A stretch of 23,956 nt of DNA from a virus. Made by a program: the position numbers and the translations under genes. A model generated the notes under the pieces. It searched no databases, was not told the DNA's origin, and saw nothing but the letters and a program-made list of their open reading frames with translations. This document shows positions 1-23,956 of the stretch, piece by piece (the first letter of the stretch is position 1; every line of letters begins with the position of its first letter). The DNA lies in the UHGV virus genome UHGV-0168080; one strand, 5' to 3'.

Positions 1-1
1 C

Positions 2-637
2 CAGATATTCATGAACGACGTGTTCCTGAAGCGCCTGACGGCCCCCACCATTACCAGCGGCGGCAATCCTCCGGCCTTTTCCCTGACACCGGACGGAAAG
101 CTGACTGCTAAAAATGCGGATATCAGTGGCAGTGTGAATGCGAACTCCGGGACGCTCAGTAATGTGACGATAGCTGAAAACTGTACGATAAACGGTACGC
201 TGAGGGCGGAAAAAATCGTCGGGGACATTGTAAAGGCGGCGAGCGCGGCTTTTCCGCGCCAGCGTGAAAGCAGTGTGGACTGGCCGTCAGGTACCCGTAC
301 TGTCACCGTGACCGATGACCATCCTTTTGATCGCCAGATAGTGGTGCTTCCGCTGACGTTTCGCGGAAGTAAGCGTACTGTCAGCGGCAGGACAACGTAT
401 TCGATGTGTTATCTGAAAGTACTGATGAACGGTGCGGTGATTTATGATGGCGCGGCGAACGAGGCGGTACAGGTGTTCTCCCGTATTGTTGACATGCCAG
501 CGGGTCGGGGAAACGTGATCCTGACGTTCACGCTTACGTCCACACGGCATTCGGCAGATATTCCGCCGGATACGTTTGCCAGCGATGTGCAGGTTATGGT
601 GATTAAGAAACAGGCGCTGGGCATCAGCGTGGTCTGA
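2..637 (+). CDS. J: Tail tip host-specificity protein J, C-terminal receptor-binding fragment (5' end lies outside the window)
   Basis: Open frame runs from the window edge; the translation (ending ...[17 protein letters not shown]) matches my recollection of the lambda J C-terminus, and lom follows directly as in lambda. Confidence 0.8.
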
Positions 638-698
638 GTGTGTTACAGAGGTTCGTCCGGGAACGGGCGTTTTATTATAAAACAGTGAGAGGTGAACG

Positions 699-1319
699 AT
701 GCGTAATGTGTGTATTGCCGTTGCTGTCTTTGCCGCACTTGCGGTGACAGTCACTCCGGCCCGTGCGGAAGGTGGACATGGTACGTTTACGGTGGGCTAT
801 TTTCAGGTGAAACCGGGTACATTGCCGTCGTTGTCGGGCGGGGATACCGGTGTGAGTCATCTGAAAGGGATTAACGTGAAGTACCGTTATGAGCTGACGG
901 ACAGTGTGGGGGTGATGGCTTCCCTGGGGTTCGCCGCGTCGAAAAAGAGCAGCACAGTGATGACCGGGGAGGATACGTTTCACTATGAGAGCCTGCGTGG
1001 ACGTTATGTGAGCGTGATGGCCGGACCGGTTTTACAAATCAGTAAGCAGGTCAGTGCGTACGCCATGGCCGGAGTGGCTCACAGTCGGTGGTCCGGCAGT
1101 ACAAGGGATTACCGTAAGACGGAAATCACTCCCGGGTATATGAAAGAGACGACCACCGCCAGGGACGAAAGTGCAATGCGGCATACCTCAGTGGCGTGGA
1201 GTGCAGGTATACAGATTAATCCGGCAGCGTCCGTCGTTGTTGATATTGCTTATGAAGGCTCCGGCAGTGGCGACTGGCGTACTGACGGATTCATCGTTGG
1301 GGTCGGTTATAAATTCTGA
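699..1319 (+). CDS. lom: Outer-membrane beta-barrel protein Lom (Ail/Lom family)
   Basis: 206 aa with an N-terminal signal peptide (MRNVCIAVAVFAALAVTVTPARA) and a C-terminal ...GVGYKF beta-barrel end; sits in the lambda position between J and stf. Confidence 0.9.
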   Translation: MRNVCIAVAVFAALAVTVTPARAEGGHGTFTVGYFQVKPGTLPSLSGGDTGVSHLKGINVKYRYELTDSVGVMASLGFAASKKSSTVMTGEDTFHYESLRGRYVSVMAGPVLQISKQVSAYAMAGVAHSRWSGSTRDYRKTEITPGYMKETTTARDESAMRHTSVAWSAGIQINPAASVVVDIAYEGSGSGDWRTDGFIVGVGYKF

Positions 1320-1383
1320 TTAGCCAGGTAACACAGTGTTATGACAGCCCGCCGGAACCGGTGGGCTTTTTTGTGGGGTGAAT

Positions 1384-4215
1384 ATGGCAGTAAAAATTTC
1401 AGGAGTCCTGAAAGACGGCACAGGAAAACCGGTACAGAACTGCACCATTCAGCTGAAAGCCAGACGTAACAGCACCACGGTGGTGGTGAACACGGTGGGC
1501 TCAGAGAATCCGGATGAAGCCGGGCGTTACAGCATGGATGTGGAGTACGGTCAGTACAGTGTCATCCTGCAGGTTGACGGTTTTCCACCATCGCACGCCG
1601 GGACCATCACCGTGTATGAAGATTCACAACCGGGGACGCTGAATGATTTTCTCTGTGCCATGACGGAGGATGATGCCCGGCCGGAGGTGCTGCGTCGTCT
1701 TGAACTGATGGTGGAAGAGGTGGCGCGTAACGCGTCCGTGGTGGCACAGAGTACGGCAGACGCGAAGAAATCAGCCGGCGATGCCAGTGCATCAGCTGCT
1801 CAGGTCGCGGCCCTTGTGACTGATGCAACTGACTCAGCACGCGCCGCCAGCACGTCCGCCGGACAGGCTGCATCGTCAGCTCAGGAAGCGTCCTCCGGCG
1901 CAGAAGCGGCATCAGCAAAGGCCACTGAAGCGGAAAAAAGTGCCGCAGCCGCAGAGTCCTCAAAAAACGCGGCGGCCACCAGTGCCGGTGCGGCGAAAAC
2001 GTCAGAAACGAATGCTGCAGCGTCACAACAATCAGCAGCCACTTCTGCATCCACCGCGACCACGAAAGCGTCAGAAGCTGCCACCTCAGCCCGGGATGCG
2101 TCGGCTTCAAAAGAGGCGGCAAAATCATCAGAAACGAGCGCAGCCTCGAGCGCCAGTAGTGCAGCTTCCTCGGCTACGGCGGCAGGCAATTCCGCGAAGG
2201 CGGCAAAAACGTCCGAGACGAACGCCAAGGCTTCTGAAACAGCAGCGGAACAGAGTGCCTCCGCAGCAGCAGGCTCAAAAACAGCGGCTGCGTCGTCCGC
2301 CAGTGCCGCGTCAACAAGTGCCGGGCAGGCCTCAGCCAGTGCTAGCGCCGCCGGAAAATCGGCAGAAAGCGCCGCATCGTCCGCTTCAACAGCCACAACG
2401 AAGGCTGGCGAAGCCACTGAACAGGCCAGTGCAGCAGCGAGGTCTGCTTCCGCAGCGAAGACATCCGAGACGAACGCGAAAGCGTCGGAAACCAGCGCAG
2501 AATCCTCAAAAACGGCTGCCGCATCGTCCGCCAGTTCGGCGGCGTCATCGGCCTCATCGGCGTCTGCTTCAAAAGATGAGGCGACCAGACAGGCGTCCGC
2601 AGCGAAGGGCAGCGCCACGACAGCATCCACGAAGGCGACAGAGGCAGCTGGTAGTGCGACGGCAGCAGCTCAGAGCAAAAGTACGGCGGAATCCGCGGCA
2701 ACGCGCGCTGAGACAGCGGCAAAACGGGCAGAGGATATTGCATCCGCCGTGGCGCTTGAGGATGCGAGCACGACGAAAAAGGGGATAGTACAGCTCAGCA
2801 GTGCGACCAACAGCACTTCCGAGTCACAGGCGGCAACGCCAAAAGCCGTTAAGGCCGCGTATGACCTGGCTAACGGGAAATACACCGCACAGGATGCAAC
2901 GACAGCACAGAAAGGGATAATCCAGCTAAGCAGCGCGACCAACAGCACATCTGAAACGCTTGCCGCGACACCGAAAGCAGTGAAAGCAGCTAATGACAAT
3001 GCGAATGGTCGGGTACCTTCTGCCCGTAAGGTGAATGGTAAGGCGCTTTCAGCGGATATAACACTGACACCGAAAGATATTGGTACGCTTAACTCAACAA
3101 CAATGTCATTCAGCGGTGGTGCTGGTTGGTTCAAATTAGCAACGGTAACCATGCCACAGGCGAGTTCTGTTGTTTCAATTACGTTGATTGGTGGCGCTGG
3201 ATATAACGTCGGTTCACCTCAACAGGCAGGTATATCTGAACTTGTTTTGCGTGCAGGTAATGGTAATCCGAAGGGGATTACTGGTGCTTTATGGCAGCGC
3301 ACATCGACAGGGTTTACAAATTTTGCCTGGGTCAATACATCTGGTGATACTTACGATATTTACGTTGCAATCGGAAATTATGCGACTGGTGTAAATATTC
3401 AATGGGATTATACCAGTAATGCCAGCGTGACGATTCATACGTCACCAGCATATTCTGCTAATAAGCCGGAAGGGTTAACGGACGGTACAGTTTATTCACT
3501 CTATACGCCATCAGAGCAGTTTTATCCGCCTGGCGCACCAATCCCGTGGCCATCAGATACCGTTCCGTCTGGCTATGCCCTGATGCAGGGGCAGACTTTT
3601 GACAAATCTGCATACCCGAAACTTGCAGCCGCTTATCCGTCAGGCGTGATCCCTGATATGCGTGGCTGGACGATTAAGGGCAAACCTGCCAGTGGTCGGG
3701 CCGTATTGTCTCAGGAACAGGACGGCATTAAATCGCACACCCACAGCGCCAGCGCATCCAGTACGGATTTGGGGACGAAAAACACATCGTCGTTTGATTA
3801 CGGAACCAAATCCACGAATAACACCGGGGCGCATACCCATAGTATTAGCGGGACTGCAAATAGTGCCGGTGCGCACCAACACAAGAGTTCCGGTGCATTT
3901 GGTGGCACGAACACGAGCATTTTCCCTAATGGTTATACCGCGATTTCAAATCTAAGCGCGGGGATTATGAGCACAACAAGCGGTAGTGGCCAGACTCGTA
4001 ATGCAGGGAAGACATCATCAGATGGTGCTCATACCCACTCGCTGTCCGGCACTGCTGCAAGCGCAGGCGCACATGCACATACTGTCGGTATTGGTGCTCA
4101 TACGCACTCCGTTGCGATTGGTTCACATGGACACACCATCACCGTTAACGCTGCTGGTAACGCGGAAAACACCGTCAAAAACATCGCATTTAACTATATT
4201 GTGAGGCTTGCATAA
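1384..4215 (+). CDS. stf: Side tail fibre protein Stf, with an extended Ala/Ser-rich repeat shaft and His-rich C-terminal tip
   Basis: N-terminus [26 protein letters not shown]... is lambda Stf-like; the ATG at 1384 is preferred over the upstream in-frame GTG at 1378. Contains a duplicated KGI(V/I)[20 protein letters not shown] motif and C-terminal GAHTHS/GAHAHT/GSHGHT repeats. Confidence 0.85.
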
Positions 4216-4790
4216 TGGCATTCAGAATGAGTGAACAACCACGGACCATAAAAATTTATAATCTGCTGGCCGGAACTAATGAATTTATTGGTGAAGGTGA
4301 CGCATACATTCCGCCTCATACAGGTCTGCCAGCAAACAGTACCGATATTGCACCGCCAGATATTCCGGCTGGCTTCGTGGCTGTTTTCAACAGTGATGAT
4401 GCATCGTGGCATCTTGTTGAAGACCATCGGGGTAAAACAGTTTATGACGTGGCATCAGGGGACGCGTTATTTATTTCTGAACTCGGTCCGTTACCGGAAA
4501 ATGTTACCTGGTTATCGCCGGAAGGGGAATATCAGAAGTGGAACGGCACAGCCTGGGTGAAAGATGCAGAAGCAGAAAAACTATTCCGGATCCGGGAGGC
4601 GGAAGAAACAAAAAACAGCCTGATGCAGGTAGCCAGTGAGCATATTGCGCCGCTTCAGGATGCGGTAGATCTTGAGATCGCAACGGAGGAAGAGAAATCG
4701 TTACTGGCCGCATGGAAGACATATCGGGTGTTGTTGAATCGTGTTGATACATCACTATCTCCAGATATCGAGTGGCCAAGTCAACCATAA
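4215..4790 (+). CDS. tfa: Tail fibre assembly protein Tfa
   Basis: 191 aa, lambda Tfa-like ([48 protein letters not shown]...); the start overlaps the stf stop (TAATG). Confidence 0.9.
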
Positions 4791-4797
4791 ATCAATA

Positions 4798-4816
4798 TCC
4801 CCTGCAATGCAGGGGA
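4798..4816. terminator. Hairpin between convergent tfa and sopB, candidate bidirectional terminator
   Basis: TCCCCTGCA-A-TGCAGGGGA inverted repeat flanked by A/T-rich sequence on both sides. Confidence 0.5.
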
Positions 4817-4822
4817 TAATTC

Positions 4823-5788
4823 TTAATTATCAGTAGATTGTTCCTCTAGTAACAACTCAATTTTGCTTAGTATTTCTTTAGATATTTTGCGGCTATCAAT
4901 TTTTATAGTTACAAAATTCCCTTTATATCTAGCCGTGATCCCTTCCCCATATTTTTTCTCGTCTTTTGTTTTTTCCTCGTCGCCAACCAGAACAGAGTCA
5001 GATAATATTTGTATAATCCGTGAAGCTTCTAAATCCTCGCCGTTTTTTTTTATTGTCAGAAGATGATGAGCAGCATTGCTCATGGCAGCCATGTTTTTTT
5101 TGTAAATCTTAAACAAAGAATCTCCAGCACGAGCTGACAGTTCTCCTGGATGATTGAAGATAGCTAATATATCTTTTGGTAGACCAGCTGTATTAATACA
5201 GCGAGTGATAATATTTCTATCTATATTTTCAGCCTCGGCCAATGCTTTAACGTTACCATCAAAGTCATTTAGCTTGCGTAAGTATCTCTTTCCTCTTTCG
5301 TATGCACTAATAGGCCTATAATCGTTACCAATTTGGGATAACCAATGCATCTGTTCATCGTCGAGATCACCAATTAAGACGCGATAGTCACATCCTGTTA
5401 ATATCGCTGCTTTTCTTCTACGTGAGCCGTCAGCGACTTCAACGATTCCAGATACTTTTCTGGCGAAAGCTGGATTTTGTTGTCCAGACGTTAGAAAAGA
5501 TGGGATTAAATCGGCTAGAGAGGATTCATTTAATAAATCTTGATCGCGTTCATTACCTAGCCATACCATTGTTGCCATTTCAACTTTATCTGCGGGAATT
5601 GTCTCTAACTTAAAGTTAACATTACGTCCGCATACTGGCAAAGTTATGCTGTTACCGGTTAATGAACTCAGTTGACGTTTTAAATCACCAACCATAGGTG
5701 ATACGGGCTGATGTTCAGGGGCATGATGATTATTACTCATAATGCGATTAATATCTGGAGCATTTTTTAGAAGAGAGCGCTGTTTCAT
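4823..5788 (-). CDS. sopB: Plasmid partition protein SopB (ParB family centromere-binding protein)
   Basis: 321 aa with F SopB-like blocks (ITLPVCGRNVNF, LGNERDQDLL, DGSRRRKAAILT, YRPISAYERG); start overlaps the sopA stop. Confidence 0.9.
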   Translation of the reverse strand: MKQRSLLKNAPDINRIMSNNHHAPEHQPVSPMVGDLKRQLSSLTGNSITLPVCGRNVNFKLETIPADKVEMATMVWLGNERDQDLLNESSLADLIPSFLTSGQQNPAFARKVSGIVEVADGSRRRKAAILTGCDYRVLIGDLDDEQMHWLSQIGNDYRPISAYERGKRYLRKLNDFDGNVKALAEAENIDRNIITRCINTAGLPKDILAIFNHPGELSARAGDSLFKIYKKNMAAMSNAAHHLLTIKKNGEDLEASRIIQILSDSVLVGDEEKTKDEKKYGEGITARYKGNFVTIKIDSRKISKEILSKIELLLEEQSTDN

Positions 5789-7391: not shown

Positions 7392-7433
7392 ACATAATTC
7401 CCCATTATACGCGCGTATAATGGGGAATTATGT
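7392..7433. other. Telomere-resolution site (telRL/tos core): 42-bp perfect palindrome with a central CGCGCG
   Basis: ACATAATTCCCCATTATACGCGCGTATAATGGGGAATTATGT is its own reverse complement, with symmetry centre at 7412/7413. The central 22 bp (CCATTATACGCGCGTATAATGG) is identical to the N15 telO core as I recall it, and the site lies directly upstream of telN. Confidence 0.85.
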
Positions 7434-23482: not shown

Positions 23483-23770
23483 TTAATAAACAGCGCGAAT
23501 ATCGATGGTTGCGCCGCAGGCATGAGCATATTTAGCCAAAGTTTTCATACTTGCCCCTAAAGGATTGCTTTCCAGGCGGCTGATGGCTGACGGGCGCAAC
23601 CCCATTCGTTCAGCCAGAGCTGATTTCGTTAAACCTGCTCTTTCCCTCATTTCGTATAACATTTCGACCATCTCCAGCTCTTTGTCGGCCTCTTCATATC
23701 CTTTGACGGCTTCTGGAGTGTTGAGGAGTTTTTCTTTTACTTCGTTAAACGGGATGCCTTTCGCTTTCAT
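23483..23770 (-). CDS. HTH (XRE-family) antitoxin of a HigBA/Gp49-type toxin-antitoxin pair
   Basis: 95 aa; HTH segment LTKSALAERMGLRPSAISRLE; start overlaps the stop of the upstream toxin-like gene. Confidence 0.75.
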   Translation of the reverse strand: MKAKGIPFNEVKEKLLNTPEAVKGYEEADKELEMVEMLYEMRERAGLTKSALAERMGLRPSAISRLESNPLGASMKTLAKYAHACGATIDIRAVY

Positions 23771-23907
23771 CAGTTCATCTCCTTCAGGCGAGTTCTGGCG
23801 ATTTCGATAGCCTTCACCGGTGTTTTCTGTGTCTTTTTTCTAAACGCATTAAATAAAACAACAATTACTTCTCCATCATATATAAAGAAAATTCGAAATT
23901 CATTATT
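23770..23907 (-). CDS. RelE/HigB-type (Gp49-like) toxin, C-terminal 45 codons only; N-terminus lost at the contig end
   Basis: The genome-encoded part reads NNEFRIFFIYDGEVIVVLFNAFRKKTQKTPVKAIEIARTRLKEMN; the ORF-track N-terminus MQRSLVGSEMCIRDR is translated adapter. Confidence 0.65.
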   Translation of the reverse strand, partial: NNEFRIFFIYDGEVIVVLFNAFRKKTQKTPVKAIEIARTRLKEMN

Positions 23908-23908
23908 C

Positions 23909-23956
23909 CTGTCTCTTATACACATCTCCGAGCCCACGAGACTACGCTGCATCTCG
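23909..23956. other. Illumina Nextera adapter read-through (Tn5 mosaic end plus index plus start of P7); assembly artefact
   Basis: CTGTCTCTTATACACATCTCCGAGCCCACGAGAC followed by the 8-nt index-like TACGCTGC and ATCTCG. Confidence 0.95.

What the first reader, a model, noticed from the sequence alone, without database searches (positions are those of the whole stretch)
23909..23956. Untrimmed Nextera adapter at the contig end creates a chimeric ORF and truncates a toxin gene
The last 48 nt are the Tn5 mosaic-end/Nextera read-through adapter followed by an index-like octamer and the start of P7. The minus-strand ORF ending at 23952 therefore begins with adapter-encoded MQRSLVGSEMCIRDR, a known contaminant peptide signature. 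Only the C-terminal 45 residues of the Gp49/HigB-like toxin are genuine, and genuine sequence ends at 23908.
Basis: seen in the sequence. Interest (0 to 1): 0.6.

Follow-up and report, generated by a model that had tools for sequence, protein, structure and literature searches.

The report
Adapter plus foreign-DNA chimera at contig end
The last 48 bases of this contig are leftover Illumina Nextera sequencing adapter, and the 69 bases before them come from an unrelated gut bacterium (Butyricimonas), so the 60-residue "toxin" read there is a three-part assembly artefact rather than a gene.

Summary
Window 23909-23956 is an exact copy of the Nextera read-through adapter: 19-nt Tn5 mosaic end, CCGAGCCCACGAGAC, index TACGCTGC (N721) and the first 6 nt of P7. 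It is the only adapter in the window.

The window is identical to Escherichia N15-like phage-plasmids only up to 23839. From 23840 to 23908 (23% GC) it is 100% identical to a Gp49-family toxin gene on a gut-metagenome contig whose flanks match a Butyricimonas sp. (Bacteroidales) genome at 99-100%. The switch lies in a 23-nt word (23817-23839, coding KKTQKTP) that both genes share.

Only the last 22 codons of the plasmid's 103-residue HigB-like toxin can be its own, and only 15 of them are unique to it. The antitoxin next to it is intact.

The hybrid junction was found in none of the DNA collections searched, and no hybrid protein turned up among 5.8 billion protein clusters.

Verdict: a two-layer sequencing and assembly artefact, not a biological feature. 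The contig should be cut at 23839 (conservatively 23816).

The parts
23909..23927 (+). Tn5 mosaic end (19 nt, CTGTCTCTTATACACATCT). This is the start of the Nextera read-through adapter.
   Evidence: Exact match, the only copy in the window with up to 3 mismatches allowed, 0 expected by chance.
23928..23942 (+). Nextera i7-side adapter arm, CCGAGCCCACGAGAC.
   Evidence: Exact match. The 34-mer made of mosaic end plus this arm is a published trimming target (PMC6460022).
23943..23950 (+). i7 sample index TACGCTGC, which is Nextera index N721.
   Evidence: PMC7589761 Appendix B lists N721 as TACGCTGC. The same octamer follows the adapter in 5 of the IMG/VR adapter copies.
23951..23956 (+). First 6 nt of the P7 flow-cell sequence (ATCTCG...). 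The sequence stops here.
   Evidence: That the window end is also the contig end and the read end is an inference.
23840..23908 (-). Foreign 69-nt fragment of a Bacteroidales (Butyricimonas-type) Gp49-family toxin gene. It encodes NNEFRIFFIYDGEVIVVLFNAFR.
   Evidence: GC is 23%, against 46% for the rest of the window. It is 89/89 identical to L004 over window 23820-23908 and 97.8% identical to L003. L004's flanks are 99-100% identical to Butyricimonas sp. MAG contig L060. The fragment is absent from 5,426 E. coli genomes, PLSDB and the phage collection.
23817..23839 (.). 23-nt word shared exactly by the two parent genes (coding strand AAAAAAGACACAGAAAACACCGG, KKTQKTP). This is the crossover zone of the chimera.
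   Evidence: The Escherichia plasmids are identical to the window up to 23839. L003 is identical from 23817 and L004 from 23820.
23770..23839 (-). The only part attributable to the phage-plasmid's own toxin gene: its last 22 codons (KKTQKTPVKAIEIARTRLKEMN) plus the stop. These correspond to residues 82-103 of the 103-aa RelE/ParE (Gp49, HigB-like) toxin WP_001495871.1.
   Evidence: Window 23700-23839 is 140/140 identical to L001 and L002. Full-length relative translated. Its Pfam Gp49 match has E=2.5e-29. Its nearest solved structure is HigB 6af3, E=5.5e-5.
23483..23770 (-). Intact antitoxin gene (95 aa, XRE/HTH_3, HigA-like). Its start codon overlaps the toxin stop codon by 1 nt.
   Evidence: Pfam HTH_3, E=2.8e-12. 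The protein is identical to that of L001 and L002 (WP_001683870.1).
23770..23952 (-). Spurious 60-aa ORF assembled from three sources. Residues 1-15 come from the adapter, with the ATG straddling P7 and the index. Residues 16-38 come from Butyricimonas-type DNA. Residues 39-45 are shared. Residues 46-60 come from the Escherichia plasmid.
   Evidence: Codon-by-codon map. No gene with exactly this product is on record.

Best explanation
The end of the contig is a two-layer artefact of library preparation and assembly. Layer 1: a short-insert Nextera fragment was sequenced past its end, so Read 1 ran into the mosaic end, the i7 arm, index N721 and P7. Those 48 nt were not trimmed and now form the contig tip (23909-23956). 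Layer 2: the insert that carried this adapter does not come from the Escherichia N15-like phage-plasmid that makes up the rest of the contig. It comes from a homologous Gp49-family toxin gene of a gut Bacteroidales organism (Butyricimonas type) present in the same sequencing data. The two genes share an exact 23-nt word at the conserved KKTQKTP motif (23817-23839), and the sequence switches genome there. The switch arose in one of two ways, which the sequence alone cannot separate. Because the crossover is at homologous codons the reading frame is kept, and an ATG formed by P7 plus the index (with a second ATG inside the mosaic end) opens a plausible-looking 60-aa ORF. Shown: the adapter identity, the two parental identities and the position of the breakpoint. 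Inferred: the route by which the join arose, and that the real plasmid carries the intact 103-aa toxin seen in its relatives.
For: The adapter is exact, unique in the window and not expected by chance; the index is N721. Sixteen E. coli plasmids and 29 PLSDB plasmids match the window only up to about 23855, and exact identity ends at 23839. The next 69 nt have 23% GC against 46% and are 100% identical to L004 and 97.8% identical to L003. L004's flanks match a 255-kb Butyricimonas sp. MAG contig at 99-100%. Of 55 related loci found among the species-representative genomes, nearly all are Bacteroidales and none is Enterobacterales. At protein level, 30 residues match P0001 exactly, but that family ends ...DSEIRKAIRLKEEYY rather than VKAIEIARTRLKEMN. 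The hybrid junction was not found in JGI metagenome contigs or IMG/VR. No hybrid protein appeared among the hits from 5.8 billion clusters, the best hit being 84% identical. The exact ORF product is not on record. Adapters at contig ends are common: at least 120 IMG/VR contigs carry the 34-mer, and 123 of 124 copies lie within 45 nt of a locus end.
Against: No reads or coverage data were available, so the join was never observed to lack read support. The frame is preserved and both halves belong to the same protein family, which a real homologous recombinant would also show. A 23-nt identity is close to the minimum length reported for RecA-dependent recombination in E. coli (from my own knowledge), so a natural event is not physically impossible. 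If the donor allele in the sample resembled L004, the shared word would be only 20 nt, too short for a k=21 graph join. That case would favour the chimeric-molecule route.
Confidence: 0.93

Rival explanations
1. One reading: only the adapter is artefactual, and 23770-23908 is one genuine stretch of the plasmid's own toxin gene, perhaps a divergent allele.
For: The 45 residues give a continuous Pfam Gp49 match covering ORF residues 9-57. The frame is unbroken.
Against: Over 23840-23908 the window is very different from all 16 E. coli and 29 PLSDB relatives, although it is identical to the closest of them for the 140 nt before that. The divergent part is 100% identical at DNA level to a Butyricimonas-type gene and has half the GC content. 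A diverged native allele would not be base-for-base identical to a gene from another phylum.
Confidence: 0.02
2. A real recombinant: the phage-plasmid in this sample acquired the 5' part of a Bacteroidales Gp49 toxin gene by recombination at the 23-nt microhomology. On this reading only the 48-nt adapter is artefactual.
For: The crossover is in frame at homologous codons. E. coli and Bacteroidales share the gut habitat. Toxin-antitoxin modules are known to be mosaic (general knowledge).
Against: The junction was not found in any DNA collection searched, and no hybrid protein appeared among the hits from 5.8 billion clusters. The foreign stretch shows no change towards the host's composition and is 100% identical to the donor type. 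It sits in the last 140 nt of the contig and runs straight into an adapter, which is where unsupported single-read tips are found. A real hybrid would pair a foreign toxin body with the resident antitoxin, and would need a second junction back to the plasmid that is not seen.
Confidence: 0.03
3. Cross-sample contamination rather than a mixed community: the sample was an E. coli isolate, and the Butyricimonas read came from another library on the same run through index hopping or carry-over. The artefact is the same but the foreign read has a different source.
For: Only 69 nt of foreign DNA are seen, which is compatible with a single stray read.
Against: Nothing in the window separates this from a gut metagenome origin. 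The adapter carries a single ordinary index.
Confidence: 0.2

Closest known systems
Illumina Nextera (Tn5 tagmentation) Read 1 read-through adapter, i7 side: CTGTCTCTTATACACATCT+CCGAGCCCACGAGAC+[i7]+ATCTCGTATGCCGTCTTCTGCTTG
   Same: All 48 nt are identical, including a catalogued index (N721). The position at a contig end matches the pattern seen in at least 120 IMG/VR contigs.
   Different: Nothing differs. Only the first 6 nt of P7 are present because the sequence stops there.
Inter-genome chimeric contig or PCR chimera joined at a short shared word
   Same: Each side is 100% identical to a different taxon. The breakpoint lies in a 20-23-nt exact shared word. GC content changes abruptly. The junction was not found in any collection searched.
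   Different: The foreign part is only 69 nt and sits at the very tip, so it is a chimeric tip rather than a fusion of two long contigs. Whether it arose in the graph or in the tube is unknown.
HigB/HigA-type (Gp49 PF05973 / XRE-HTH) type II toxin-antitoxin module of N15-like Escherichia phage-plasmids (toxin WP_001495871.1, antitoxin WP_001683870.1)
   Same: The antitoxin is intact and identical. The toxin lies upstream with a 1-nt overlap between its stop codon and the antitoxin start codon. The last 22 toxin codons are identical to the relatives.
   Different: The first 81 codons of the toxin are missing from the contig. This is a limit of the assembly, not evidence of a truncated gene in the organism.
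Bacteroidales Gp49-family short toxins (55-72 aa; P0001, P0009, B. fragilis M081_3694), each followed by an HTH antitoxin
   Same: ORF residues 16-45 are identical to P0001, and the DNA is identical to L004.
   Different: Their C-terminus (DSEIRKAIRLKEEYY...) is replaced in the window by the Escherichia C-terminus. The window carries none of their flanking DNA.

Membership tests
Nextera read-through adapter contamination | Exact 19-nt Tn5 mosaic end, CTGTCTCTTATACACATCT | tested here: met
   Window 23909-23927, 0 mismatches, unique in the window, 0 of 100 shuffles matched.
Nextera read-through adapter contamination | Mosaic end followed directly by the i7-side arm CCGAGCCCACGAGAC | tested here: met
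   Window 23928-23942, exact.
Nextera read-through adapter contamination | An 8-nt index from the kit's catalogue, followed by P7 (ATCTCGTATGCC...) | tested here: met
   TACGCTGC is N721 (PMC7589761). ATCTCG follows at 23951-23956. Only 6 nt of P7 are available.
Nextera read-through adapter contamination | Located at a contig terminus, with low read support there | not testable with these tools
   The adapter lies at the window's last base, and the same pattern is seen in 123 of 124 IMG/VR copies. No reads or coverage data are available, and that the window end is the contig end is inferred.
Cross-genome chimeric join | The two sides have near-100% identity to different, unrelated genomes | tested here: met
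   Escherichia plasmids 140/140 up to 23839. L004, with Butyricimonas flanks, 89/89 over 23820-23908.
Cross-genome chimeric join | Breakpoint within a short exact word shared by both parents | tested here: met
   23-nt shared word at 23817-23839; 20 nt against the L004 allele.
Cross-genome chimeric join | The junction is not reproduced in independent data | tested here: met
   No hits in JGI metagenomes or IMG/VR. Not present in E. coli genomes, PLSDB or phages. No hybrid protein found.
Gp49 / RelE-ParE (HigB-like) type II toxin | Pfam PF05973 match above the gathering score | tested here: met
   49.8 bits against a cut-off of 23.9, but only profile positions 42-90 of 90 are covered, and the matched residues come from two organisms plus adapter.
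Gp49 / RelE-ParE (HigB-like) type II toxin | A complete toxin domain encoded by one contiguous native gene | tested here: not met
   Only 22 of 103 codons can be attributed to the plasmid gene. The ORF as it stands is not a member. The underlying plasmid gene, judged from relatives, is.
Gp49 / RelE-ParE (HigB-like) type II toxin | Cognate HTH antitoxin immediately downstream (higBA gene order) | tested here: met
   95-aa HTH_3 protein at 23483-23770, overlapping the toxin stop codon by 1 nt and identical to the relatives' protein.

The most novel reading that the evidence does not exclude
The join at 23817-23839 is real: a gut Escherichia N15-like phage-plasmid replaced the body of its HigB-like toxin with that of a Butyricimonas Gp49 toxin by recombination on a 23-nt microhomology. 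This would make an inter-phylum hybrid toxin still paired with the resident antitoxin, and only the 48-nt adapter would be artefact.
Probability: 0.03. Interest if true: 0.5.

Novelty: not a real feature. Interest (0 to 1): 0.08.

Why it matters
This has practical value only. If the contig is deposited or mined as it stands, it contributes a fictitious 60-aa protein made from adapter, Butyricimonas DNA and an Escherichia plasmid gene. That protein still passes Pfam's Gp49 threshold. It could seed a false "hybrid toxin" family, suggest a truncated toxin-antitoxin module, or create a false link between an Escherichia phage-plasmid and a Bacteroidales host in k-mer or homology-based host prediction. 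The correct cut is at 23839, or conservatively 23816. The case also shows that sequence just inside an adapter-terminated contig end may rest on a single read and should not be trusted without checking.

Tried and rejected
- Looked up the exact 60-aa ORF product in the 153-billion-gene index: not on record.
- Searched for the adapter/insert junction in IMG/VR to find the source contig: none.
- Searched for the Escherichia/Butyricimonas junction in IMG/VR and JGI metagenomes: none. This counts against a natural recombinant but cannot prove the junction's absence.
- Scanned the full-length relative toxin against NCBIfam: no family. The hybrid ORF and P0009 hit TIGR02683 only below its cut-off, so no finer family name than Gp49/RelE-ParE could be given.
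- Searched the paper library for MCIRDR, CIRDR and SEMCIRD to document the "known contaminant peptide" claim. No paper describes it as such. There was only an unexplained CIRDR 5-mer feature in a machine-learning study.
- Considered that 23840-23908 might be a divergent native Escherichia allele. Rejected because it is base-for-base identical to a Bacteroidales gene and absent from all Escherichia records.
- In one search, the rows at window positions 23950 and above are an artefact of my script, which sliced fragments shorter than 15 nt at the end of the string. They should be ignored.
- I could not decide between a low-k graph join and a PCR chimera as the origin of the junction.

Full report
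**1.

The last 48 bases of the window (23909-23956) read CTGTCTCTTATACACATCT-CCGAGCCCACGAGAC-TACGCTGC-ATCTCG.
- The 19-nt Tn5 mosaic end occurs exactly once in the window, even with up to three mismatches allowed, and no shuffle gave a match.
- The full pattern, with the index left free, matches exactly.
- The reverse complement of the 48 nt equals the 3' 48 nt of the Nextera i7 primer plus mosaic end, built with index GCAGCGTA.
- TACGCTGC is catalogued as index N721 (PMC7589761, Appendix B). The 34-mer is a published Nextera trimming target (PMC6460022).
- No TruSeq, P5, P7 or other Nextera arm is found anywhere else in the window.
- The orientation is that seen at the 3' end of Read 1 when the insert is shorter than the read (established knowledge of the library design).
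- Base 23909 (C) also matches the donor gene, so the boundary is uncertain by one base.

**2. The ORF**

The minus-strand ORF 23770-23952 translates to MQRSLVGSEMCIRDRNNEFRIFFIYDGEVIVVLFNAFRKKTQKTPVKAIEIARTRLKEMN. A codon-by-codon map shows the following.
- The start ATG is made of the last two bases of P7 plus the first base of the index, so it depends on which index was used.
- A second in-frame ATG lies inside the mosaic end, giving MCIRD, and does not depend on the index.

**3.

The closest relatives are Escherichia plasmids, mostly about 46 kb, that carry a protelomerase, a CyRepA1 replication protein, SopA, a lambda-type Q protein and a lysozyme. They are N15-like phage-plasmids, and at least one record is linear.
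- All of their alignments stop at about 23849-23855, not at 23908.
- Exact identity to pPEC011-4 and pCAVP367-48 runs 140/140 up to 23839 and then breaks down.
- The remaining 69 nt (23840-23908) have 23% GC against 46% for the rest of the window.
- These 69 nt are absent from 5,426 complete E. coli genomes, 72,556 plasmids and 50,697 phage records.

**4. Origin of the 69 nt**

A search with the 45 supposedly genuine residues found a family of 55-72-aa Gp49 proteins. P0001 contains NNEFRIFFIYDGEVIVVLFNAFRKKTQKTP exactly, but continues DSEIRKAIRLKEEYYETKGNQ. The Escherichia toxin instead has ...YLLHAFVKKTQKTPVKAIEIARTRLKEMN.

At DNA level:
- The window is 89/89 identical to contig L004 (Logan SRR5829319) over 23820-23908.
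- It is 90/92 identical to L003 (an ENA metagenome assembly) over 23817-23908.
- L004's flanks match a 255-kb contig of a Butyricimonas sp. MAG (L060) at 99-100%.
- Of 55 related loci found among the species-representative genomes, nearly all are Bacteroidales and none is Enterobacterales.

The two parent genes share one exact 23-nt word, AAAAAAGACACAGAAAACACCGG (window 23817-23839), at the conserved KKTQKTP motif. The window switches parent inside it.

**5. Resulting anatomy**

| Window region | Origin |
|---|---|
| up to 23816 | Escherichia phage-plasmid only |
| 23817-23839 | shared by both parent genes |
| 23840-23908 | Butyricimonas type |
| 23909-23956 | adapter |

- Only the last 22 codons of the 103-aa plasmid toxin (WP_001495871.1) can be its own, and only 15 of them are unique to it.
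- The full-length relative matches Pfam Gp49 at E=2.5e-29. Its nearest solved structure is HigB 6af3 at E=5.5e-5.
- The 95-aa HTH_3 antitoxin at 23483-23770 is intact and identical to that of the relatives.

**6. Mechanism**

Shown: a short Nextera insert was read through into its adapter, and that insert is of Bacteroidales origin. The join to the Escherichia contig at the shared word is therefore a chimera.

Inferred: the route by which the join arose. There are two candidates.
- A de Bruijn join at low k. Three 21-mers are shared if the donor allele has CCGG, as L003 does. Such a join can be carried forward by multi-k assemblers when the plasmid's own coverage has a gap at that point.
- A chimeric library molecule made by PCR template switching at the 23-nt homology.

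I cannot separate these two without the reads.

A natural recombinant is not formally excluded, since the frame is preserved in either case. The evidence against it is as follows.
- The junction is absent from JGI metagenomes and IMG/VR, from the E. coli genome, plasmid and phage collections, and from the protein hits among 5.8 billion clusters.
- The foreign piece is identical to the donor type and keeps the donor's composition.
- It sits directly against an adapter at the contig tip.

**7. How ordinary this is**

Of 124 copies, 123 lie within 45 nt of a locus end. Forty of them open an ORF of at least 30 aa from the ATG inside the mosaic end. Terminal adapter contamination and MCIRD-type pseudo-proteins are therefore widespread.

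**8. Verdict**

This is not a biological feature. Its interpretation is partly right, but it underestimates the artefact by 69-92 nt. The contig should be trimmed at 23839, or conservatively 23816. Interest is low. The one useful lesson is that trimming the adapter alone would leave foreign DNA and a cross-phylum pseudo-hybrid toxin in the record.

Noticed in passing
window 7392-7433: A perfect 42-bp palindrome with no spacer (ACATAATTCCCCATTATACGC|GCGTATAATGGGGAATTATGT) lies between sopA and the protelomerase gene (synteny). It looks like the telRL/telO protelomerase target of an N15-like linear phage-plasmid. Several plasmid and phage alignments begin exactly at 7392. The window reads straight through the uncut site, joining the tail-fibre/sop arm to the telN arm. 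This implies either the circular or virion form of the element, or an assembler join through the palindrome.
   Followed up: partly
window 1-4778, and the boundary at 4787-4827: The first 4.8 kb are a lambda-type J / tail fibre / Lom / tail-fibre assembly block, 92-97% identical to lambda and phage ev099. The best N15-like plasmid matches begin only at 4779-5148, and most others at 7392. An imperfect 20-nt palindrome sits at the boundary. This is probably a mosaic module boundary.
   Followed up: no
L060:3047-3075, compared with L004:91-195 and L003:455-622: The donor gene varies between assemblies. The Butyricimonas species-representative MAG lacks 105 nt in frame inside the Gp49 gene. L003 encodes a 55-aa version. 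P0039, from another ENA assembly, carries an internal duplication (IRDGLYEFRVSYGNNE appears twice). The locus is either truly variable or prone to misassembly.
   Followed up: partly
L064-L183 (IMG/VR contigs): At least 120 IMG/VR viral contigs end in the same Nextera 34-mer. Most of the listed rows come from one dataset (3300045988). Two contigs carry the adapter at both ends (L068, L125). Index N721 occurs 5 times among the copies.
   Followed up: partly
L074:3701-3734 (IMGVR_UViG_3300010234_000504, 190,684 nt): This is the only adapter copy that is not at a locus end: it lies inside the stored stretch of a 190-kb contig. It may mark an internal chimeric join in that public contig.
   Followed up: no
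literature: PMC7694136, Table A7: The amino-acid 5-mer CIRDR, listed with no gene product, is among the top features predicting imipenem MIC in K. pneumoniae (present in 162 strains, absent from 1,504). It is the peptide encoded by the Nextera mosaic end. In my view this is probably a library-kit batch effect rather than biology.
   Followed up: no
PLSDB and RefSeq records H65-H73 (for example NZ_CP014491.1 at 62.6 kb and CP088810.1 at 81 kb): Several relatives of this roughly 46-kb element are deposited as 61-81-kb plasmids with up to 4 separate matching places per record. This may reflect fold-back duplications from assembling hairpin-ended linear plasmids, or cointegrates.
   Followed up: no
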